DNA from: a virus
Strand: one strand, 5' to 3'
Length of the DNA stretch: 64,000 nt
IMG/VR virus record: IMGVR_UViG_3300048694_000674
Coordinates: 77,394 to 141,393 of that record
The translations under genes and the position numbers were made by a program. Shown here piece by piece: positions 31,047 through 40,025 of this stretch. The notes below the pieces were generated by a model. It was not told where the DNA came from. It saw only the letters and a list, made by a program, of their open reading frames with translations, and ran no database searches. Position 1 is the stretch's first letter. The number at the start of each line of letters is the position of its first letter.

Positions 31047-31209
31047 TATTATTGATCTTGTTGAAAAGATCAAGGACAAAAATATTAGAGATAGCGAACG
31101 AAACAATTATATTGTTAGACTAGAAACTACTGCTTCATATATTAATGAATCATTGTCTAAGAATAAAATGAATCAACAACAACTTATGAGAAAGAATCAG
31201 AATCGCTAA
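31018..31209 (+). CDS. Hypothetical protein
   Basis: 63-aa ORF coupled to gp55 and gp47. Confidence 0.55.
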   Translation: MNKLHLVPANIIDLVEKIKDKNIRDSERNNYIVRLETTASYINESLSKNKMNQQQLMRKNQNR

Positions 31210-32264
31210 TGAAGATTGCTTTGATTACGGACACTCATTGGGGTGTCAGAAATGATAATGTTGCGTTCTTAGATGACTCGAAGAAATTTCTAGATACAAT
31301 CTTTTTTCCATATCTGGAGAAGAATGGTATTACTACAGTCGTTCATCTTGGTGATCTGGTCGATCGTCGCAAGTATATCAACATTAATACTGCTACTCGT
31401 CTCAGGAAAGATTTTCTTGAGCCATTGAGTAAGTATGATGTTCATATCATTGCTGGAAATCACGATACATATTTCAAAAACACAAATGAGATCAACTCTC
31501 TCAGAGAGCTACTGCCTTCATATCCTTATAAGATATATGACAAGTTCCCACAAGAAGTTGAATTTGATAACTCAGTAATTCTAATGACTCCATGGATCTG
31601 CGATGAAAACAGAAAACTATCTTTTGAAAAAATCAGATCAACTCCATCGCAGATCCTCATGGGACATCTGGAAATCGCTGGGTTTGAAATGTATCGAGGG
31701 TCTATGGTCTCTCATGGCGAAGATCGCACGAGCTTTGACAGATTTGATATGGTACTGTCTGGCCATTATCATCATCGTTCTAGTGATGGCTGCATTTACT
31801 ATCTTGGTAATCATTGTGAGTTTACCTGGAGCGATTATGATGATCCTAAAGGATTTCACATCCTCGATACAGAAACGAGGGACTTGACTTTTATACGAAA
31901 CCCATATAGAATGTTTGATAAGGTTTGGTATGATGATGCACAAGAAAGTTTAGATCCAGCTAATATGGAAATATCGCATCTAAAAGGTAAGATCATCAAA
32001 GTCATTGTACAAAACAAAACCAATCCTTACAAGTTCGATTTGTTCATAAACAGTTTAGAAAAGATTGGTGTTCTGGATATGCAGATTGTTGAAGATCATT
32101 TGAATCTCGCCTTTGAAGATGATACATCTATTGTGAATGAAGCAGAATCTACAATAGACATATTCCGTCATCATATTGAGCAGATCAATATTCAAAATCT
32201 TGACAAGAAAAAACTCGAAGCTACGATCGTCGATCTCTATCAAGAGGCATTGACTATAGAATGA
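31209..32264 (+). CDS. gp47: Recombination nuclease gp47 (Mre11/SbcD-like)
   Basis: ITDTHWG, GDLVDRRK, GNHD, GHLE, SGHYH. Confidence 0.95.
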   Translation: MKIALITDTHWGVRNDNVAFLDDSKKFLDTIFFPYLEKNGITTVVHLGDLVDRRKYININTATRLRKDFLEPLSKYDVHIIAGNHDTYFKNTNEINSLRELLPSYPYKIYDKFPQEVEFDNSVILMTPWICDENRKLSFEKIRSTPSQILMGHLEIAGFEMYRGSMVSHGEDRTSFDRFDMVLSGHYHHRSSDGCIYYLGNHCEFTWSDYDDPKGFHILDTETRDLTFIRNPYRMFDKVWYDDAQESLDPANMEISHLKGKIIKVIVQNKTNPYKFDLFINSLEKIGVLDMQIVEDHLNLAFEDDTSIVNEAESTIDIFRHHIEQINIQNLDKKKLEATIVDLYQEALTIE

Positions 32265-33967
32265 TTTTATTTAAAACATTGCGTTGGAAGAACTTCCTTT
32301 CAACTGGTAATATATTCACAGAAATTTCTCTCAATAAATCATCATCGACATTGATTGTTGGTGAGAATGGTGCAGGCAAATCAACCATTCTCGACGCATT
32401 GACATTCTCATTGTTCGGTAAACCATTCAGAAAGATCAACAAACCACAGCTACTTAACAGCATAACTCAGAAGGGTCTTGTTGTTGAGATTGAGTTTGAT
32501 ATTGGATCGAACAAATATAAGATAATTCGTGGGCTGCGACCAAATATCTTTGAAGTGTATATGAATGATAATCTGCTTAACCAAACAGCAGAGATGAAAG
32601 ATTATCAGGAAATACTTGAGCGTCAGATACTCAAGTTGAATTATAAGTCATTCTGTCAGGTTGTTGTTCTTGGATCAGCTTCCTTTGTTCCATTCATGCA
32701 GTTAGCTGGTGGTCAGCGTAGAGAGATTATTGAGGATCTGCTTGATCTACAAATCTTTACGATTATGAATAGTTTGCTGAAAGATAAGATATCTGTCAAC
32801 AATGAAAACTTGGCAGAAATATCTTCAGATCAAAAAGTTGTTACTGAAAAGTTGAAGATCATTCAGCAACATCTGCTCGAGAAACAAAACAGTAATGATA
32901 AGATCATTAGAGAGAAACAAGATCTTCTGATCGAAACAATAGTAAAGATTGAGGATCTGCAGAACAAATACTTCAAAATAAAAGTTTCTATTGAGAATGA
33001 GAAGGAAAAGGTAGCTGACTCTGAATCAATAACAAGTAAGATAACAAAACTTGAACAGCTGAAGCATAAGATTGAAGCAAAGAAAGCTCTGATCTGTAAT
33101 GACATTGAGTTTTTCAAGAAGCATGAAAATTGTCCAACATGCACTCAATCTATCAGTGCTGAGTTTCGCGAAACAACTATTGAGTCTAAGAATCGCGAAA
33201 TAGAAACGATTGATGTTGGCTTGGTTGATCTTGCCAAGAAATATGATGAAACGAGCGCTCGTCTTAGTGAAATTATGAGCACAAATACTTTAATCAATGA
33301 TATGCAGATTGAAGGTGTTAGAATGAGTTCTAACATTGATAGTTTGATTCGATATAAAGATCATCTTAATAAAGAAATCAACACAATCAACAAAGATCTT
33401 GAGGATGATGAGGAGAGTAAGATGACTGCTCTTCAACAGGAACTAGAAGATATTGCGACGAGATATAATGATGCAATGGATGAAAAGCAACTATTAACTG
33501 CTGCGTCTTATCTTCTGAAAGATGGTGGTATCAAAGCCAAGATTATCAAACAGTATGTTCCTGTTATCAATAAGCTTATCAATAAGTATCTTAGCGCTAT
33601 GGACTTTTTCGTTCAGTTCGAACTTGATGAAGAGTTCAATGAAACTATCAAGTCAAGATTCCGTGATGAGTTCAGTTACAGCTCTTTCTCAGAAGGCGAG
33701 AAGATGCGTATCAATCTTGCTATTCTTTTCACTTGGCGTGCTGTCGCTAAACTGCGTAATTCTGTCAGTACAAATCTACTCATTATGGATGAAGTTATGG
33801 ATTCATCGATGGACTCAAATGGAACAGATGAGTTTCTGAAGATATTAAACAACTTGACTTCTGACACAAATACGTTTATAATATCTCATAAAGGTGATCA
33901 GCTATATGATAAGTTTCCAAACATCATTAGATTTGAAAAGAAACAAAACTTCAGCAAGGTAATATAA
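32261..33967 (+). CDS. gp46: Recombination ATPase gp46 (Rad50/SbcC-like)
   Basis: GENGAGKST, CPTC zinc hook, SFSEGEK, MDEV. Confidence 0.96.
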   Translation: MILFKTLRWKNFLSTGNIFTEISLNKSSSTLIVGENGAGKSTILDALTFSLFGKPFRKINKPQLLNSITQKGLVVEIEFDIGSNKYKIIRGLRPNIFEVYMNDNLLNQTAEMKDYQEILERQILKLNYKSFCQVVVLGSASFVPFMQLAGGQRREIIEDLLDLQIFTIMNSLLKDKISVNNENLAEISSDQKVVTEKLKIIQQHLLEKQNSNDKIIREKQDLLIETIVKIEDLQNKYFKIKVSIENEKEKVADSESITSKITKLEQLKHKIEAKKALICNDIEFFKKHENCPTCTQSISAEFRETTIESKNREIETIDVGLVDLAKKYDETSARLSEIMSTNTLINDMQIEGVRMSSNIDSLIRYKDHLNKEINTINKDLEDDEESKMTALQQELEDIATRYNDAMDEKQLLTAASYLLKDGGIKAKIIKQYVPVINKLINKYLSAMDFFVQFELDEEFNETIKSRFRDEFSYSSFSEGEKMRINLAILFTWRAVAKLRNSVSTNLLIMDEVMDSSMDSNGTDEFLKILNNLTSDTNTFIISHKGDQLYDKFPNIIRFEKKQNFSKVI

Positions 33968-34512
33968 TGAATCTGGTAGAGAGCAATGATCCAATCCTTA
34001 CGACCGAATGTGAACCATTCGACTTTCGCAATCCACAATTTGATCCTGTAGATTTTGCGCATCAAATTGTTAAATTTATGTATGATAACAATGGTATTGG
34101 TATTTCTGCCAATCAGGTTGGAATACGTAGCCGTGTTTTTGCTATGCGTTCTTCTCCCCAAAATTTTGTATGTTTCAATCCAAAGGTTGTCCAGCCTAGT
34201 GAACAGATGGTTGTTCTAGAAGAATCATCATTGACGCATCCTGGACTTATTGTTAAAGTAAAACGACCGCAGCATGTTCGAGTCAGATTCACTACACCAA
34301 ATGGAGAAACTAAGACAGAAACATTTACTGGAATGACTGCCAGAGTATTTCAACAAATGGTAGATAATTTAGATGGAGTCCTTTACTTTAATCGTGCTTC
34401 GAGGTATCATAGAGATATAGCGTTGGAAAAGTGGAGGAAAGGTAATCACTCTACGATTCAAGTTAAACCTAAAGATGGATTGAATAAATATGAATATCTT
34501 CTACATCGATAA
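33967..34512 (+). CDS. Peptide deformylase homologue with degenerate catalytic motifs
   Basis: GIGISANQVG, FNP, KVKRP..V.V retained; EGCLS reads EESSLT and QHEXDHL reads QQMVDNL. Confidence 0.8.
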   Translation: MNLVESNDPILTTECEPFDFRNPQFDPVDFAHQIVKFMYDNNGIGISANQVGIRSRVFAMRSSPQNFVCFNPKVVQPSEQMVVLEESSLTHPGLIVKVKRPQHVRVRFTTPNGETKTETFTGMTARVFQQMVDNLDGVLYFNRASRYHRDIALEKWRKGNHSTIQVKPKDGLNKYEYLLHR

Positions 34513-35029
34513 AGATCCTGTACAGGCTGCGCAGTGGATGGTTGACAAACATGTTGTCAAGATGATCCTCGAATCAGCACAACTTCTTTCTACTGCACAT
34601 CGTTTACTTGATGGTCGCGAGGTCGAAGGTAAAACTAAGACTGGTCGCAAAGCTCGTCGCTGGGTTCTTGATGATTCTCGCGATCCTGTTATCTATCAGG
34701 CTACGCATATCAATCATCCTTCTGCTGTTTGGTGTCGTCAGTCTGTTGAAAACTATATCTGGTTAGCAGATCATTTACATGCGCTTATGCAGGAGTATAC
34801 ATATCGTTATGGTAAGAAGCATGCAGTTGATGGTAATCTATCATACATGCTTATGTCGCCACCAAAAAACTTACAAGAATATGATATGACTACTATGCCA
34901 TCAGCTATGGATGAACAATACAAAATCAGTGACGATCCAATCGTCAACTATCGCAACTACTATAAAGTCGGTAAAGCCAGAATGCATAACTGGAAAAACC
35001 GCCAACCACCAGAATGGATTACACAATGA
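34490..35029 (+). CDS. Pyrimidine-dimer DNA glycosylase/DenV-family-like protein
   Basis: MNIFY.D.DP..AAQ...DKHVVKMILESAQLLSTAH, THINHPSAVW. Confidence 0.75.
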   Translation: MNIFYIDKDPVQAAQWMVDKHVVKMILESAQLLSTAHRLLDGREVEGKTKTGRKARRWVLDDSRDPVIYQATHINHPSAVWCRQSVENYIWLADHLHALMQEYTYRYGKKHAVDGNLSYMLMSPPKNLQEYDMTTMPSAMDEQYKISDDPIVNYRNYYKVGKARMHNWKNRQPPEWITQ

Positions 35030-35442
35030 GTTTTTATACAGACGTAAAAGATTTTCATATTGCTTTCGGTCAGCGAGTAGGCGAGAAGCCAGAACTTCCA
35101 GTTGATTCAAATGAACGTAAGCTTCGTATAAGACTTCTAAAAGAAGAATTTGAAGAATATATGGCAGCAGAAATTGATGAAGATATTGTCGAGGTTGCTG
35201 ATGCTCTTGCTGATCTTATCTACATTGCCTGTGGTACTGCTGTATCTTATGGCATCCCACTTGACAAAGTGTTTGAAGAAGTACATCGTTCAAACATGGC
35301 CAAACTTGTGGATGGTAAGCCACTATATCGTGAAGATGGAAAGGTAATGAAGCCAGAAGGATGGACTGCTCCAGATATTGAAGGCGTATTAAAAAAGTCA
35401 CAGGAAGAAATTATTATTCGTAATGCTCAAATTACACTATGA
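35026..35442 (+). CDS. MazG-like/PRA-PH nucleotide pyrophosphohydrolase
   Basis: L.EEF.E, EVADALADLIY, EVHRSNMAK, REDGKVMKPEGW. Confidence 0.85.
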   Translation: MSFYTDVKDFHIAFGQRVGEKPELPVDSNERKLRIRLLKEEFEEYMAAEIDEDIVEVADALADLIYIACGTAVSYGIPLDKVFEEVHRSNMAKLVDGKPLYREDGKVMKPEGWTAPDIEGVLKKSQEEIIIRNAQITL

Positions 35443-35485
35443 TGTTCGTATATATACGATATACGAACTTTGAAAGGAGGCTACA

Positions 35486-36790
35486 TTGGTCAATCAACTT
35501 ATCATAAAGAAACTTGATGCTGAAGAAACACTTGGTACATTCATCACCTGTAAAGATTATGCCAATCTGATCATTACTGAAGATTGTGATCTTTATGCAG
35601 AGGATCCTATGGATCCAACTAAAGCAGATGAAGAGAATGTTATCTTCAGATATCGCAAGGGCGTATTTTCTCATGAAGAACGTCGTCGTTGTTATCATGG
35701 TCTAAGAGCAGCTGCTACTGAATCTCAAAATCGTGGTATGGCTGCTGGTCCTCGTGGCGATCAGCTTGGACAGGAAGGACGTGGTAATCGCGATTGGGTT
35801 ACTGCTGAACAACTTGACATTCTTTCATTTCTTGCTCGTCCTCTCAATACAATTGATGATGGTGTCGCGCTTGAAGATATTCGCGCAAGTCATCAACAGT
35901 TCAAAGAAAAAGATGAGACACGTGGACAGGTTTGGCTTCGTTCAGAAGTAACGAAGAAGTATCCAGAATACCATGGTTGGTTTGAAAAGTGGGTATCTGG
36001 TATTCATAATATGTCTCGCGAAGAGCAGAAAGAAGAAGCACAGTTTATCATTGATAACTATATCTCAGACACCAACTACGCGCAGTCAGTAATGTCTGGT
36101 ATCGCTGGTTTCTATGATCGTTATCCTCGCATTCCTTATGGTCGTGCTACTTCTTATACTGAAAAACATCCAGAAGATTTTGCTGAATCCTTTCCGTTTC
36201 TCAACAAGTTGAATGATCAGTTTAGAAAACTATTGCCTGTTCGTTGGGCTAATCAACGTGCTTGTGCTGATAAACTTGATCCAAAATTTTTGATTGATGG
36301 AACAGTATTTACTACGCTAACAGTCAATCATAACTGGCGTACAGCATGTCATCGAGATGCTGGCGATCTTCATGAAGGATTCTCTAACATCTGCGCTCTA
36401 GGTAAGGGTTGGCAGGGAGCTGAATTTATTCTTCCTGAGTTTCGTATTGCTGTGAAACTTGAATCAGGCGATATGTTGCTTGTCAATAATCATGGCGGTA
36501 TCCATGGCAATGATGCGCTTGTTGGTGATGATAATGATCGTATGACAATCGTTGCTTACTTCCGCGAAAAGATGATGGATCTTAAGTCCTGGGATTATGA
36601 ACAGCTGCGTAAGAAGTATATTGACGAACGTCGCATGAACAAGGAACACAAACACTGGCGCCATCTTTGGAATGGTGTTAGCCCAGATATGTGGCATGAA
36701 CAGGAATGGTATGATTATATGGCTGCGCATAATATGGAAGATCCATATAAAGAAACAAAAGCAGCAAGTCTAGAGGATTTCTTCGTATGA
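35486..36790 (+). CDS. TET/JBP-family 5-methylpyrimidine dioxygenase
   Basis: FTTLTVNHNWRTACHRDAGD (HxD), GDMLL..NH..IHGN (distal His), RMTIVAYFRE; AAGGAGG RBS before TTG. Confidence 0.85.
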   Translation: MVNQLIIKKLDAEETLGTFITCKDYANLIITEDCDLYAEDPMDPTKADEENVIFRYRKGVFSHEERRRCYHGLRAAATESQNRGMAAGPRGDQLGQEGRGNRDWVTAEQLDILSFLARPLNTIDDGVALEDIRASHQQFKEKDETRGQVWLRSEVTKKYPEYHGWFEKWVSGIHNMSREEQKEEAQFIIDNYISDTNYAQSVMSGIAGFYDRYPRIPYGRATSYTEKHPEDFAESFPFLNKLNDQFRKLLPVRWANQRACADKLDPKFLIDGTVFTTLTVNHNWRTACHRDAGDLHEGFSNICALGKGWQGAEFILPEFRIAVKLESGDMLLVNNHGGIHGNDALVGDDNDRMTIVAYFREKMMDLKSWDYEQLRKKYIDERRMNKEHKHWRHLWNGVSPDMWHEQEWYDYMAAHNMEDPYKETKAASLEDFFV

Positions 36791-37770
36791 GTTTACATGC
36801 TTTTCTTGATGAAGAACGTGAGCTACAATGGTTCTACGATAACAATAAACTTAACCAAGGACCGACTATCGGTTATCGTAGAGTATCTGGTAAGATTGGT
36901 TTAACTAAGAATGAAGCTGGTATTCGTGGCGCATGGGTAGATAAGAGAGTTGCTCTTTTCAAAACTCTTGGTTATGATAAGTATCGCATCAAACTTCTTT
37001 CTGAAGTAACAGAAGAAACTAAAGGAGATGGTGTTACTGTTGAAGATGATAACACTGTTTGTGATATTCTCTACCTCGAGTTTGGTGGAACCAATCTACA
37101 GTTTTATGGTAAGAACTGGGACAAGACGATTGAAATTGTCAAACTTCACAGAGGTAAGAAAAAGGTTTTCGTTTGTGATGATCCAGATCTAACATTCCTC
37201 TGGGAACTTCTACCCGACGAAGATTGGTCGTTATGGTCAATCGCTGCGAATGCGGTAAACACAGATGAGGTGTTGAAAGTATTAAAAGCGCCAGAAGGTG
37301 TTACCTGCTTTCATCTACCGATGGATAAAGGTATGACTGCTGAAATGTTCAGCGATGGAACTATTCAGAAGATTGTTTACATTGGTCGCAATCAGGGACG
37401 TTCTTCTTATTTCAAAACTTTCGGTAGTTCGCCTTATCTTCAGATAGCTGGTAAGACGAGTGAATGGGAAGATTATCCAAACCTTACTCTTGTTGATATT
37501 CCACAACAGAAAGATCGTCGTTCGTTTTATCGCAAGTACTATGGTTGTTTGGCTGTATATGATAAAAAGCACGCAGTAACTGGATGGCATACTGGTCGCG
37601 CATATCATGCTCTTTATGCTGGTGTACCTGTACTTGCTCCTCCTGGAAATGATGGACTTGATTGGACATATCCAATAAACAATGCCAGCGACATTGAAAC
37701 TTTTGTCAATATGCCAGTTGAAGAAAGACAAAATATTTGGCACAAACAACTTGACAAAATTCTAAAATGA
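36787..37770 (+). CDS. GT-B glycosyltransferase resembling T4 beta-glucosyltransferase
   Basis: Segments collinear with recalled T4 BGT motifs: NLQFYG~INFFGG, VCDDPDLTF~FTDIRLPF, IVYIGR~VIYGGS, LAVYDK...HTGRAY~LIIGDK...ITLRVW; overlaps TET stop. Confidence 0.65.
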   Translation: MSLHAFLDEERELQWFYDNNKLNQGPTIGYRRVSGKIGLTKNEAGIRGAWVDKRVALFKTLGYDKYRIKLLSEVTEETKGDGVTVEDDNTVCDILYLEFGGTNLQFYGKNWDKTIEIVKLHRGKKKVFVCDDPDLTFLWELLPDEDWSLWSIAANAVNTDEVLKVLKAPEGVTCFHLPMDKGMTAEMFSDGTIQKIVYIGRNQGRSSYFKTFGSSPYLQIAGKTSEWEDYPNLTLVDIPQQKDRRSFYRKYYGCLAVYDKKHAVTGWHTGRAYHALYAGVPVLAPPGNDGLDWTYPINNASDIETFVNMPVEERQNIWHKQLDKILK

Positions 37771-38210
37771 TAGTATCATATGATATTGATGGTGTTCTCG
37801 CCGAAGGACCACCTCCTTCTGCAAAGAAGTGGGGAAAAATGAATGGAGCTGAGAGATCAGAACGTAAGCGATTCCTTGTAGATTGGTACAGGAATGCTGT
37901 TCCTCTTTTAGTTCCAGAAGAACCCTACTTCTTTGCAATTTCGGCAAGAAAATTTGAACCAGATGTTTATTCTGCTACTCAAATATGGTTGGATACATAT
38001 TATCCAAAGAGAGTAGTAGAAACTTTTCTATTGAGTGGATCGCGTTCAGTTATAAATGCTGCGACCTTCAAAGCAGATATTATTTCTAGAAATAACGTCC
38101 AGAGACATTATGAGGATAACAAAAAAGTTTTGAAGATTATGAAGAATATCAATCCAGAAGTTGAATATTATTTTTGGGAAAAAGGAATGGTGACTCCAGA
38201 AAGGTTTTGA
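37767..38210 (+). CDS. HAD-superfamily phosphatase
   Basis: YDIDGVL motif I, ISAR motif II, K, YEDN motif IV. Confidence 0.8.
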   Translation: MIVSYDIDGVLAEGPPPSAKKWGKMNGAERSERKRFLVDWYRNAVPLLVPEEPYFFAISARKFEPDVYSATQIWLDTYYPKRVVETFLLSGSRSVINAATFKADIISRNNVQRHYEDNKKVLKIMKNINPEVEYYFWEKGMVTPERF

Positions 38211-38494
38211 TGATGAAAAAAATTCCTTATAAATATGCTGAGGACAAAATAATTGCTGACTTCCATGCCTATATAGATAAGACATACGGTCAGCACTATC
38301 AGACAGAAAACAATGTTCAATGCTTCGATGCTTGGATTGCTCTGGATGATGCTACTCCTACTTTCCGTAATACTGCCATCAAATATCTCTGGCGATATGG
38401 TAAGAAGAATGGCAATAACAAAGATGACTTGATGAAGGTCTTGCATTACACAATTATGTGTTTGTATAATGATCATTATAAGGATGGTAAATAA
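38210..38494 (+). CDS. DUF3310-like (nucleotide kinase/SaV-like) protein
   Basis: YIDKTYGQHY, AIKYLWRYGKK, DL.K.LHY. Confidence 0.7.
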   Translation: MMKKIPYKYAEDKIIADFHAYIDKTYGQHYQTENNVQCFDAWIALDDATPTFRNTAIKYLWRYGKKNGNNKDDLMKVLHYTIMCLYNDHYKDGK

Positions 38495-39342
38495 TGGAAA
38501 TTAAAATTGATATCGAAAAGCTAAAAGAGCGTGGATTATTTGTAGCCACACCAATGTATGGTGGTATGTGTGCGGGTATGTTTTCTAAGTCATGCGCCGA
38601 TCTCTCTGCTATCTGTACACAGTACGGAATTCCTCTACAGTTCTACTTTCTGTTTAATGAGTCGCTAATTACTCGTGCAAGAAATTATTGCTGCGATGAG
38701 TTTATGCGTTCAAACTCACAACATCTGATGTTCATTGACTCTGATATTGGTTTTAATCCACAGGATGTTATTGCTATGATGGCTCTACAAGCACAAGAGC
38801 CAGAGAAATATAATATCATCGGCGGTCCTTACCCTAAGAAGTGTATCTCATGGGAAAAGATCAAGGCAGCTGTTGATAAAGGTATTGCTGACGATGATGC
38901 AAATATTCTTGAAAGATTTGTCGGCGATTATGTTTTCAATCCAAAAGGCGGTCAACAATCAATTCCGATCTCAGAGCCAGTCGAGGTTCTTGAAATTGGT
39001 ACTGGTTTCATGATGATTGAAAAAGCTTCTATGAAGAAGTTTGTTGATACATATCCTCAATATATGTACAAGCCTGATCATGTTCGTACAGAGCACTTTG
39101 ATGGTTCGCGCGAAATTATGATGTTTTTCCAAGCAGAAGTTGATCCAGTATCGAAGCGTTATCTGTCAGAAGATTATTGGTTCTGTCAGAAAGCTCAACA
39201 GGCTGACATTCGTACATGGTTCTGTCCTTGGATGAAGCTACAACATGTTGGTAGCTATATCTTTGGTGGGTCATTAGCCGACCTAGCATCTATCGGTGCG
39301 TCTGCAACAGCAGATCCAGGGCAATTGAAGAAGCGTAAGTAA
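38494..39342 (+). CDS. GT-A fold glycosyltransferase-like protein
   Basis: VATPMYGG, NESLITRARN, FIDSDI, IGTGFMMI, YLSEDYWFC. Confidence 0.75.
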   Translation: MEIKIDIEKLKERGLFVATPMYGGMCAGMFSKSCADLSAICTQYGIPLQFYFLFNESLITRARNYCCDEFMRSNSQHLMFIDSDIGFNPQDVIAMMALQAQEPEKYNIIGGPYPKKCISWEKIKAAVDKGIADDDANILERFVGDYVFNPKGGQQSIPISEPVEVLEIGTGFMMIEKASMKKFVDTYPQYMYKPDHVRTEHFDGSREIMMFFQAEVDPVSKRYLSEDYWFCQKAQQADIRTWFCPWMKLQHVGSYIFGGSLADLASIGASATADPGQLKKRK

Positions 39343-39362: not shown

Positions 39363-40025
39363 ATGAAACTTGATGCAAAAACTGTGGGTGTTTTGAAGAA
39401 CTATTCAACAATCAATCCTTCTCTCCTGTTCCGAGAAGGTAATGTCCTTTCAACTATCTCACCATCTAAAACAATTATCGCAAAGGCGACTGTACCAAAT
39501 ACATTCAATCGTCGTTGCGCTATCTATGAATTGACAAAGTTGCTTGGTGGTATTTCTCTTTCAGATGATCCAGAAGTTTCTTTTAATGAGACTTCTGTTA
39601 CTATCAAGGATGAGAAGACTCAGGCTGCTAGTAGCATTACCTATGCTTCAGAAGCAACTATCAAGGTGCCACCAGAAAAGAATCTTGTATTGCCTTCTGT
39701 TGATGTTTCAGTTGATATTACTGATAATGATTTGAAGTCAATCATTCGTGCTGCTGGAATTTATGGTTTGCCAGCTGTTGCTCTTGTTGGTGATGGTTCT
39801 AAGGTTTCATTTGTTGCAATGAATCCAAAAGATCCTAACAGCAATACCTATAGCATTCCGATTGGTAACACAGAAAAGACATTCAAAGTCGTGTTCAATG
39901 TGGATAATCTTCTCAAGTTGATGAGTGGCAATTATCATCTTGATGTTTCATCTAAGTTACTCGCCCACTTTGTTGGGGCTGATATTGAATACTGGGTTGC
40001 AGTAGAAACTAGCTCAACTTTTTAA
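39363..40025 (+). CDS. gp45: Sliding clamp gp45
   Basis: LKNYSTINPSL...GN.L.T, AIYEL, YWVAVE. Confidence 0.92.
   Translation: MKLDAKTVGVLKNYSTINPSLLFREGNVLSTISPSKTIIAKATVPNTFNRRCAIYELTKLLGGISLSDDPEVSFNETSVTIKDEKTQAASSITYASEATIKVPPEKNLVLPSVDVSVDITDNDLKSIIRAAGIYGLPAVALVGDGSKVSFVAMNPKDPNSNTYSIPIGNTEKTFKVVFNVDNLLKLMSGNYHLDVSSKLLAHFVGADIEYWVAVETSSTF

What the first reader, a model, noticed from the sequence alone, without database searches (positions are those of the whole stretch)
35026..39342. TET/JBP dioxygenase coupled to a BGT-like glycosyltransferase with no C5 methyltransferase nearby: candidate base-J-like DNA hypermodification
Seen: a TET/JBP ORF with intact HRD, distal His and Arg motifs overlaps a GT-B ORF whose motifs are collinear with T4 beta-glucosyltransferase, followed by HAD, DUF3310-like and GT-A genes and preceded by a MazG-like gene, all between gp46 and gp45. 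Established: characterised phage TETs oxidise 5mC made by a partner C5-MTase, and kinetoplastid JBP plus a glucosyltransferase makes base J from thymine. No C5-MTase motif (PCQ/ENV) and no dCMP/dUMP hydroxymethylase is recognisable in these 64 kb. Inference: the enzyme may oxidise T to 5hmU in DNA, with one or two sugars then added, which would be a post-replicative route unlike T4's nucleotide-pool route.
Basis: partly seen in the sequence, partly recalled or inferred. Interest (0 to 1): 0.82.

Follow-up and report, generated by a model that had tools for sequence, protein, structure and literature searches.

The report
Phage thymine-oxidising, sugar-adding DNA modification cassette
An uncultured T4-like freshwater phage carries one operon with a TET/JBP-type DNA dioxygenase, a glycosyltransferase folded like T4 beta-glucosyltransferase and a small phosphatase. 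It most likely turns thymine in the phage's own DNA into a sugar-bearing base resembling base J; recent papers already predict this kind of pathway, but the sugar product has not been shown in a phage.

Summary
The five genes from 35486 to 39342 overlap by 1-4 nt. They are: a TET/JBP dioxygenase (PF12851, intact H289-x-D291, H340, R352); a GT-B protein whose model matches T4 beta-glucosyltransferase best (Z 20.5); a HAD-like 147-aa protein; DUF3310; and a GT-A enzyme with a DxD motif.

No C5-methyltransferase or ThyA-type hydroxymethylase was found in the 141-kb contig, in four complete cultured relatives carrying the same long TET (only Cr30 has a ThyA-family gene), or in two 100%-complete metagenomic genomes carrying the TET-GT-B-HAD trio.

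The strongest new evidence is comparative. In sibling phages the same TET (64-81% identical) sits at the same site. The genes after it are swapped for 5hmU-specific machinery (P-loop kinase with amino-acid:DNA transferase) or for a JGT-type TAGT. The GT-B family is almost always in an operon with a TET, including ParB-plus-short-TET pairs of the kind shown experimentally to oxidise thymine.

So T to 5hmU to glycosyl-5hmU is the best reading (about 0.7). The GT-A and DUF3310 genes are lineage core genes and not TET-specific.

The concept is already published (Lee 2021, Pyle 2023, O'Toole 2026). This is a new variant, not a new kind.

The parts
35486..36790 (+). Long-form (434 aa) TET/JBP-family 5-methylpyrimidine dioxygenase; probable thymine dioxygenase. 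TTG start 5 nt after AGGAGG.
   Evidence: PF12851 5.6e-18 and phrog_24024 4.9e-130. H289/D291/H340/R352 invariant. Profile hit to TET2, E 6e-5. More than 2,500 homolog clusters. Start context.
36787..37770 (+). TET-associated GT-B glycosyltransferase with a T4 BGT-like fold; probable DNA 5hmU glycosyltransferase (sugar unknown).
   Evidence: AF2 pLDDT 94.3. T4 BGT is the top hit: Foldseek TM 0.68 and VIA Z 20.5. Invariant D132/R201/R205/R271/H274 align with BGT D100/R191/R195/R269/E272. A long TET lies directly upstream in 57 of 68 related loci.
37767..38210 (+). 147-aa HAD-like phosphatase candidate, travelling with the GT-B gene.
   Evidence: D-x-D-G-V motif at residues 6-10. Atlas leads to HAD_PNKP/NT5C clusters. 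No Pfam or PDB hit. Directly downstream of GT-B in 66 of 72 loci.
38210..38494 (+). DUF3310 protein (the mechanical ORF starts at TTG 38174; ATG 38210 overlaps the upstream stop). Conserved frame gene of unknown role.
   Evidence: PF11753 6.2e-5 and phrog_480 2.6e-22. Junction read. Present beside GT-A whatever cassette precedes it.
38494..39342 (+). GT-A glycosyltransferase (phrog_1574) with a DxD motif. It is a lineage core gene at the gp46-gp45 junction; its acceptor is unknown and it is not TET-specific.
   Evidence: AF2 pLDDT 93.8. Foldseek hits are all GT-A enzymes (STIV A197, Mnn9, mimivirus R699, COLGALT1). D82/D84 invariant. 81-89% identical where gp45 is 46-55%. Same position in phiM12 and Ochrobactrum phage OC, which gave no TET hit.
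35014..35442 (+). MazG-like nucleotide pyrophosphohydrolase; conserved upstream neighbour, context only.
   Evidence: PF01503 8.2e-21 and phrog_671. Syntenic in all related loci.
32261..33967 (+). gp46 (SbcC-like), left anchor of the island.
   Evidence: phrog_77 7.2e-168.
39363..40025 (+). gp45 sliding clamp, right anchor of the island.
   Evidence: tblastn matches to annotated sliding-clamp genes of DLP6 and Cr30.

Best explanation
This is a post-replicative thymidine hypermodification operon in a T4-like aquatic phage. The 434-aa TET/JBP-family dioxygenase uses Fe(II) and 2-oxoglutarate to hydroxylate the methyl group of thymine in phage DNA, giving 5-hydroxymethyluracil. The downstream BGT-like GT-B enzyme then flips out that base and transfers a sugar from a nucleotide-sugar donor onto the new hydroxyl, giving a base-J-like glycosyl-5hmU. 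The co-travelling HAD-like phosphatase probably serves donor-sugar supply or clean-up. Shown here: the folds, the catalytic residues, the gene linkage and the absence of alternative routes. Inferred: the substrate base, the sugar, the extent of modification and the role of the HAD protein. The site between TET and DUF3310/GT-A is a swap site: near-identical phages carry other 5hmU-derivatising cassettes there. The likely purpose is evasion of host nucleases. GT-A and DUF3310 are co-translated neighbours, but they are conserved lineage genes and may serve another acceptor.
For: 1) TET is intact and a family member. 2) GT-B: T4 BGT is the best structural match, 4.6 Z units above the next hit, which is T4 AGT, the other T4 DNA glucosyltransferase. 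BGT catalytic and UDP-binding positions fall on family-invariant residues. 3) The genes are coupled by 4-nt and 1-nt overlaps. 4) In 29 sibling loci the frame gp47-gp46-PDF-phrog624-MazG-TET-[variable]-DUF3310-GT-A-gp45 is fixed. The variable slot holds AADT PF18724 (3.6e-24) with P-loop kinase PF18751 (6.4e-14), with or without GATase and GNAT; or TAGT PF20691 (3.9e-17) alone; or GT-B with HAD. TETs of 78-81% identity to this one carry four different cassettes. The kinase and AADT act on 5hmdU in DNA (PMC8989533). 5) Cultured Cr30 has the long TET with AADT (1.3e-52); S-CBWM1 has the long TET with TAGT, a HAD-like gene, glucose-1-phosphate thymidylyltransferase and an APH-like kinase. 6) 57 of 68 GT-B loci have the long TET directly upstream. 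Ten of the other eleven carry ParB_N plus a short TET in the same operon; that architecture was shown to convert T to 5hmU (PMC13229309). 7) No PF00145 in the contig, in DLP6, Cr30, C48C1 or S-CBWM1, or in two 100%-complete genomes with the trio. PF00303 occurs only in Cr30. 8) Asp294 sits at the position of TET2 N1387, as in JBP1 and NgTET1 (PMC11804724); this is weak support. 9) T4 beta-GT itself can glucosylate 5hmU to make base J (PMC4111573).
Against: There is no biochemical or virion-DNA evidence for this phage or any close relative. Clade C1 phage TETs lacking ParB were reported inactive on both 5mC and T in E. coli (PMC8256090; PMC13229309, section read), and this enzyme may belong there. 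BGT-like GT-B enzymes characterised so far in phage TET clusters acted on 5hmC (bioRxiv 10.1101/2023.12.21.572611). T4 beta-GT glucosylates 5hmU in duplex DNA only when it is mispaired with G (PMC4111573). A host-encoded C5-methyltransferase, or one outside PF00145, cannot be excluded. The window's contig is estimated to be only 85% complete. The Asp at the N1387 position also occurs in NgTET1, which is mainly a 5mC enzyme.
Confidence: 0.7

Rival explanations
1. The TET oxidises 5-methylcytosine laid down by a host or an unrecognised phage C5-methyltransferase, and the GT-B glycosylates 5hmC, as in the characterised phage MT-5mYOX-GT clusters.
For: The first characterised phage TETs are 5mC dioxygenases (PMC8256090). 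BGT-like GT-B enzymes from such clusters modify 5hmC (bioRxiv 10.1101/2023.12.21.572611). T4 BGT is a 5hmC enzyme. The contig is 85% complete.
Against: No PF00145 in the contig, in four complete cultured relatives or in two 100%-complete genomes with the trio. Orthologous TETs at the same site are coupled to the 5hmU-specific kinase and AADT. GT-B relatives pair with ParB-type T-dioxygenases.
Confidence: 0.1
2. The TET makes 5hmU in DNA, but both sugars are added in sequence: GT-B adds the first and the downstream GT-A extends it to a disaccharide, with DUF3310 as an accessory protein.
For: All five genes are translationally coupled. Phage clusters with sequential GTs making di- and trisaccharides on DNA are known (abstract). 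GT-A sits near the long TET in DLP6 and Cr30 too.
Against: GT-A and DUF3310 stay in place whichever cassette is present, including AADT/kinase cassettes that leave no sugar to extend. GT-A occupies the same gp46-gp45 position in phiM12 and phage OC, which gave no TET hit. GT-A has at least 8,000 homolog clusters against about 110 for GT-B.
Confidence: 0.15
3. The enzymes do not modify phage DNA in bulk. The TET marks a few sites for regulation, or acts on RNA, and the GT-B and GT-A act on non-nucleic-acid acceptors such as virion proteins or host envelope sugars.
For: Phage T-dioxygenases show sequence preference and partial modification, and an epigenetic-like role has been suggested (PMC13229309). 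Glycosyltransferases of related pelagimyophages were read as LPS-modifying (PMC7029224).
Against: The two best structural matches of GT-B are the two T4 DNA glucosyltransferases. GT-B is in an operon with a TET in nearly every locus. The alternative cassettes at this site are DNA-base transferases.
Confidence: 0.05

Closest known systems
Phage thymine dioxygenases (5mYOX clades C1/C2; O'Toole et al. 2026, PMC13229309; TET89 in Burke et al. 2021, PMC8256090)
   Same: TET/JBP fold with the HxD...H...R residues; no adjacent C5-MTase; neighbours are GTs, AADTs, P-loop kinases and GATases. The closest cultured short form (HTVC112P gp18, 37.7% identity over residues 190-394) sits beside a ParB-like gene.
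   Different: 434 aa instead of about 290-300. No ParB_N gene in the contig. About 95 extra residues (roughly 97-190) lie where HTVC112P gp18 has a gap, and there is a roughly 70-residue conserved C-terminal tail. The N-terminus is not ParB-like. It sits in the replication module of a T4-like phage. Its activity is untested.
T4 beta-glucosyltransferase (PDB 1c3j, 1j39) and phage 5mYOX-associated GT-B enzymes GT53/66/94 (Pyle et al. 2023 preprint)
   Same: Compact GT-B fold (Z 20.5). An invariant Asp at the position of the catalytic D100 and Arg residues at the UDP-phosphate positions. Encoded next to the enzyme that makes the hydroxymethyl acceptor. One published cluster also has a HAD-like partner.
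   Different: 14% identity, with no significant profile match. The partner is a TET without a methyltransferase, so the acceptor is probably 5hmU and not 5hmC. The sugar is unknown. I could not compare it with the GT53/66/94 sequences.
Kinetoplastid base J pathway (JBP1/2 plus JGT)
   Same: The same two-step logic: a TET/JBP enzyme hydroxylates T in DNA, then a glycosyltransferase adds a sugar. Asp is at the TET2-N1387 position, as in JBP1.
   Different: JGT belongs to the GT-A TAGT family (PF20691), whereas this GT is GT-B. There is no SNF2 domain, and no J-binding domain was detected by Pfam. Sibling phages, not this one, carry TAGT at the same site.
Thymidine hypermodification by 5-HMUDK plus AADT (Lee et al. 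2018 and 2021; PMC5889632, PMC8989533)
   Same: It derivatises 5hmU in DNA after replication. Contigs pairing TET_JBP with these genes were already noted there. Sibling phages and Cr30 carry these genes next to the orthologous TET.
   Different: This window has neither the kinase nor AADT; it uses direct glycosyl transfer. The classical systems make 5hmdU before replication with a dUMP hydroxymethylase.

Membership tests
TET/JBP 2OG-Fe(II) dioxygenases (PF12851) | Profile match above the curated cut-off | tested here: met
   65.2 bits against a cut-off of 34.9; profile hit to TET2, E 6e-5.
TET/JBP 2OG-Fe(II) dioxygenases (PF12851) | HxD plus distal His iron triad, and the 2OG-binding Arg | tested here: met
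   H289, D291, H340 and R352 are invariant in 9 homologs and align with the TET2 HRD, distal His and Arg.
Phage T-dioxygenases, ParB-dependent subclass | Adjacent ParB-like activator gene | tested here: not met
   No PF02195 match at E<=1 in the 141-kb contig. The TET N-terminus is not ParB-like.
Phage T-dioxygenases, ParB-independent subclass (clade C2) | Stand-alone enzyme of about 290-300 aa grouping with 5mYOX89/97 | tested here: inconclusive
Phage T-dioxygenases (any subclass) | Oxidises T to 5hmU in DNA | not testable with these tools
   Supported only by context: no C5-MTase found, and 5hmU-specific cassettes in orthologous loci.
T4 BGT-like DNA glucosyltransferases (GT-B) | GT-B two-Rossmann fold closest to BGT | tested here: met
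   Z 20.5, rmsd 3.2, 277 of 333 residues; Foldseek TM 0.68.
T4 BGT-like DNA glucosyltransferases (GT-B) | Detectable sequence homology to BGT | tested here: not met
   hhalign probability 6%. A profile search of PDB sequences finds no GT.
T4 BGT-like DNA glucosyltransferases (GT-B) | Catalytic Asp (D100) and UDP-phosphate Arg residues (R191, R195, R269) | tested here: inconclusive
   A plain global alignment places invariant D132, R201, R205 and R271 on them. No residue-level structural superposition was available. The roles of the BGT residues are from my own knowledge, apart from D100, which the Pyle et al. preprint names as catalytic.
TAGT / base-J glucosyltransferase family (PF20691) | Profile match | tested here: not met
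   Neither GT of the window matches PF20691. Sibling loci such as L008, and S-CBWM1 gp9, do match.
GT-A glycosyltransferases | GT-A Rossmann-like fold with a DxD motif | tested here: met
   Model pLDDT 93.8; all top hits are GT-A enzymes. D82/D84 invariant. Family members hit Anp1, GT21 and GT2 profiles.
HAD phosphatases | Motif I DxDx(T/V) and a profile match | tested here: inconclusive
   Motif I is present. There is no Pfam, NCBIfam or PDB hit. The Atlas gives leads only.

The most novel reading that the evidence does not exclude
An abundant lineage of freshwater T4-like phages replaces part of its thymine with a base-J-like glycosyl-5hmU, made after replication. The enzyme would be a ParB-independent long-form thymine dioxygenase whose enlarged insertion domain does the job that ParB does for its short relatives. 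The fixed site between this enzyme and DUF3310/GT-A would be a hot-swap slot through which near-identical phages exchange whole thymidine-hypermodification chemistries (sugar, amino acid, TAGT).
Probability: 0.45. Interest if true: 0.6.

Novelty: new variant of a known kind. Interest (0 to 1): 0.5.

Why it matters
If confirmed, this would be a natural example of glycosylated 5hmU (a base-J-like base) made after replication in a bacterial virus. It would also assign a function to a TET family with thousands of metagenomic members and to a previously unannotated GT-B family. The swap site would show how closely related phages diversify DNA chemistry, presumably under pressure from host nucleases. 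In practice, a ParB-independent thymine dioxygenase and a 5hmU-specific glycosyltransferase would be useful reagents for mapping 5hmU. The cultured relatives Cr30, DLP6 and S-CBWM1 allow an immediate test.

Tried and rejected
1) The idea that the extra N-terminal part of the long TET is a fused ParB. BLASTP against HTVC112P ParB gives E 4.3, and the part has no ParB_N hit. Rejected: the extra length is mainly an internal insertion of about 95 residues plus a C-terminal tail.
2) Sequence-level proof of BGT homology. hhalign and a PDB profile search were not significant, so only fold-level evidence stands.
3) GT-A as a specific TET partner. Rejected, because GT-A occupies the same position in phiM12 and Ochrobactrum phage OC, which gave no TET hit, and it persists with every cassette type.
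4) MazG as a pool-clearing enzyme for a pre-replicative route. There is no hydroxymethylase, and MazG is conserved synteny. Not evidence either way.
5) Evidence of modified DNA in DLP6. The RFLP sentence in the held text of PMC5349666 is truncated, so nothing could be taken from it.
6) megablast of the region against cultured phages found nothing.
Neighbourhoods came from the search for related loci instead.
8) Clade placement against 5mYOX89/97/176 and against GT53/66/94 was not possible, because no referenced sequences were available.
9) ThyX (PF02511) is also absent from the contig.

Full report
WHAT IS THERE. The window is the last 64 kb of a 141,393-bp IMG/VR contig of a T4-like phage (CheckV 85%). 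Between gp47/gp46 (31209-33967) and gp45/gp44 (39363 onwards) lie these genes, all on the + strand:
- peptide deformylase;
- a phrog_624 protein;
- MazG (35014-35442);
- a 434-aa TET/JBP protein (35486-36790);
- a 327-aa protein with no family hit (36787-37770);
- a 147-aa protein with no family hit (37767-38210);
- DUF3310;
- a 282-aa phrog_1574 protein (38494-39342).

The five genes from TET to phrog_1574 overlap by 4, 4, 1 and 1 nt, so they are one translationally coupled unit. TET starts at a TTG five bases after AGGAGG, just downstream of a 10-bp hairpin.

THE PROTEINS. TET matches PF12851 well above its cut-off. H289, D291, H340 and R352 are invariant in homologs down to 28% identity. 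They align with the iron and 2-oxoglutarate residues of human TET2.

The 327-aa protein has 110 homolog clusters, none annotated. With that alignment AlphaFold2 gives pLDDT 94.3. T4 beta-glucosyltransferase is the best match by Foldseek (TM 0.68). It is also the best in an exhaustive VIA-align search (Z 20.5, rmsd 3.2, 277 residues), and T4 alpha-glucosyltransferase is second at Z 15.9. Profile comparison finds no significant sequence homology. A plain alignment nevertheless puts family-invariant D132, R201, R205, R271 and H274 on BGT D100, R191, R195, R269 and E272.

The 147-aa protein has HAD motif I, and only language-model leads point to PNKP-type and NT5C-type HAD phosphatases.

The 282-aa protein folds with pLDDT 93.8 as a GT-A enzyme with an invariant DxD motif.

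WHICH BASE? Four lines of evidence point to thymine.

(1) No alternative route was found. PF00145 and PF00303 are absent from the contig. PF00145 is absent from the complete genomes of DLP6, Cr30, C48C1 and S-CBWM1, which carry orthologs of this long TET; only Cr30 has a ThyA-family gene. Both families are absent from two 100%-complete, terminally repeated metagenomic genomes that carry the TET-GT-B-HAD trio.

(2) The locus is a swap site. In 29 IMG/VR loci the frame gp47-gp46-PDF-phrog624-MazG-TET ... DUF3310-GT-A-gp45-gp44 is constant, while 0.8-5.3 kb between TET and DUF3310 varies. The slot holds one of:
- amino-acid:DNA transferase (PF18724) with a P-loop kinase (PF18751), with or without GATase and GNAT genes;
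- a methyltransferase-like gene with an AADT-family gene and the kinase;
- a TET-associated glycosyltransferase (PF20691, the family of the base-J glucosyltransferase) alone;
- the GT-B/HAD pair, as in this window.

TETs 78-81% identical to this one carry four different cassettes. The kinase and AADT are proven to work on 5hmdU in DNA, and Lee et al. already read TET_JBP next to them as the source of 5hmU (PMC8989533).

(3) Cultured phages show the same link. Cr30 has the long TET with AADT (1.3e-52). S-CBWM1 has TET, then TAGT, a HAD-like gene, glucose-1-phosphate thymidylyltransferase and an APH-like kinase. C48C1 has TET, an unknown 344-aa protein and UDP-galactopyranose mutase.

(4) The GT-B family is tied to TETs. 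Of 68 loci with enough upstream DNA, 57 have the long TET immediately upstream. Of 72 with enough downstream DNA, 66 have the HAD-like gene immediately downstream. Ten of the remaining eleven carry a ParB_N gene and a short (about 290-300 aa) TET in the same operon, in the order ParB-TET-GT-B-HAD or ParB-GT-B-HAD-TET. ParB plus a short 5mYOX is the architecture shown by O'Toole et al. to convert T to 5hmU in vivo and in vitro (PMC13229309).

A weak fifth point: Asp294 occupies the position of TET2 N1387, as in JBP1 and NgTET1 (PMC11804724). T4 beta-GT itself can make base J from 5hmU (PMC4111573).

WHAT KIND OF TET? It has no ParB partner and its N-terminus is not ParB-like. Its closest cultured short relative, HTVC112P gp18, sits beside a ParB-like gene. 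Compared with gp18, the long form has about 95 extra residues (roughly 97-190) after the conserved N-terminal motif, and a conserved C-terminal tail. O'Toole et al. found that a variable insertion near this place decides ParB dependence. I infer, without a test, that the enlarged insertion makes the enzyme self-sufficient.

A caution applies. Clade C1 enzymes without ParB were inactive on both substrates in E. coli.

GT-A AND DUF3310. These are not specific partners. GT-A is 81-89% identical across loci where gp45 is about 50%. It has at least 8,000 homolog clusters. It sits between gp46 and gp45 in Sinorhizobium phiM12 and Ochrobactrum phage OC, which gave no TET hit. It stays in place with AADT cassettes. 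Its acceptor is unknown.

COMPARISON AND NOVELTY. The idea of TET-made 5hmU as a handle for glycosyl or amino-acid transfer in phages is published as prediction or partial demonstration (PMC8989533; bioRxiv 10.1101/2023.12.21.572611; PMC13229309). Pyle et al. described BGT-like GT-B enzymes in 5mYOX clusters (shown acting on 5hmC). They also noted GT pathways next to gp45/clamp and ParB genes. A 2OGFeDO gene was noted in passing in freshwater pelagimyophages (PMC7029224).

The following were not found in the papers read here:
- the long, ParB-less enzyme form in the replication module of T4-like phages;
- an unannotated GT-B/HAD pair that is nearly always in an operon with a TET;
- the fixed swap site.

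A glycosyl-5hmU product has not, in the papers I could read, been demonstrated for a phage. I therefore rate this a new variant of a known kind, of moderate interest.

LIMITS. There is no biochemistry. The sugar donor is unknown. The HAD assignment rests on a motif and a lead.

Noticed in passing
window 38494-39342 and homologs P0351, P0352, P0354, P0356, P0374: Many homologs of the GT-A protein are 640-1180 aa long because they carry one or two LAGLIDADG inteins (Intein_splicing plus LAGLIDADG_2). That is unusual for a glycosyltransferase and fits its very strong conservation.
   Followed up: partly
window 35443-35485: A 10-bp perfect hairpin (GTTCGTATAT / ATATACGAAC) lies between MazG and TET, followed by AGGAGG and a TTG start. 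It may be a processing or attenuation element.
   Followed up: no
window 34490-35029: A conserved 179-aa phrog_624 protein upstream of MazG-TET has a sub-threshold match to the pyrimidine-dimer DNA glycosylase family (PF03013, E 3e-4). It may be a DNA glycosylase-like protein kept next to the modification genes.
   Followed up: no
L006:11544-12995, L022, L026-L028: The larger cassettes contain a 430-486-aa protein with a weak (sub-threshold) GIY-YIG nuclease domain match. It may be a homing endonuclease that drives cassette exchange at this site.
   Followed up: no
L002 (Caulobacter phage Cr30), L033 (Synechococcus phage S-CBWM1), L003 (phage C48C1): The long TET, annotated 'SNF2 DNA repair protein', is followed in Cr30 by AADT, a TAGT-like gene and inositol-1-phosphate synthase. 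In S-CBWM1 it is followed by TAGT, a HAD-like gene, glucose-1-phosphate thymidylyltransferase and an APH-like kinase. In C48C1 it is followed by UDP-galactopyranose mutase. These three probably have different modified thymidines.
   Followed up: partly
L098-L103 and L110-L116: Operons ParB_N - short TET - GT-B - HAD, or ParB_N - GT-B - HAD - short TET, occur in other phage lineages. L100 also has a DUF932 gene upstream and L102 an ERF recombinase.
   Followed up: partly
window 38174-38494: The mechanical TTG start of the DUF3310 ORF is probably wrong. An ATG at 38210 overlaps the upstream stop by one base, giving a 94-aa protein.
   Followed up: yes
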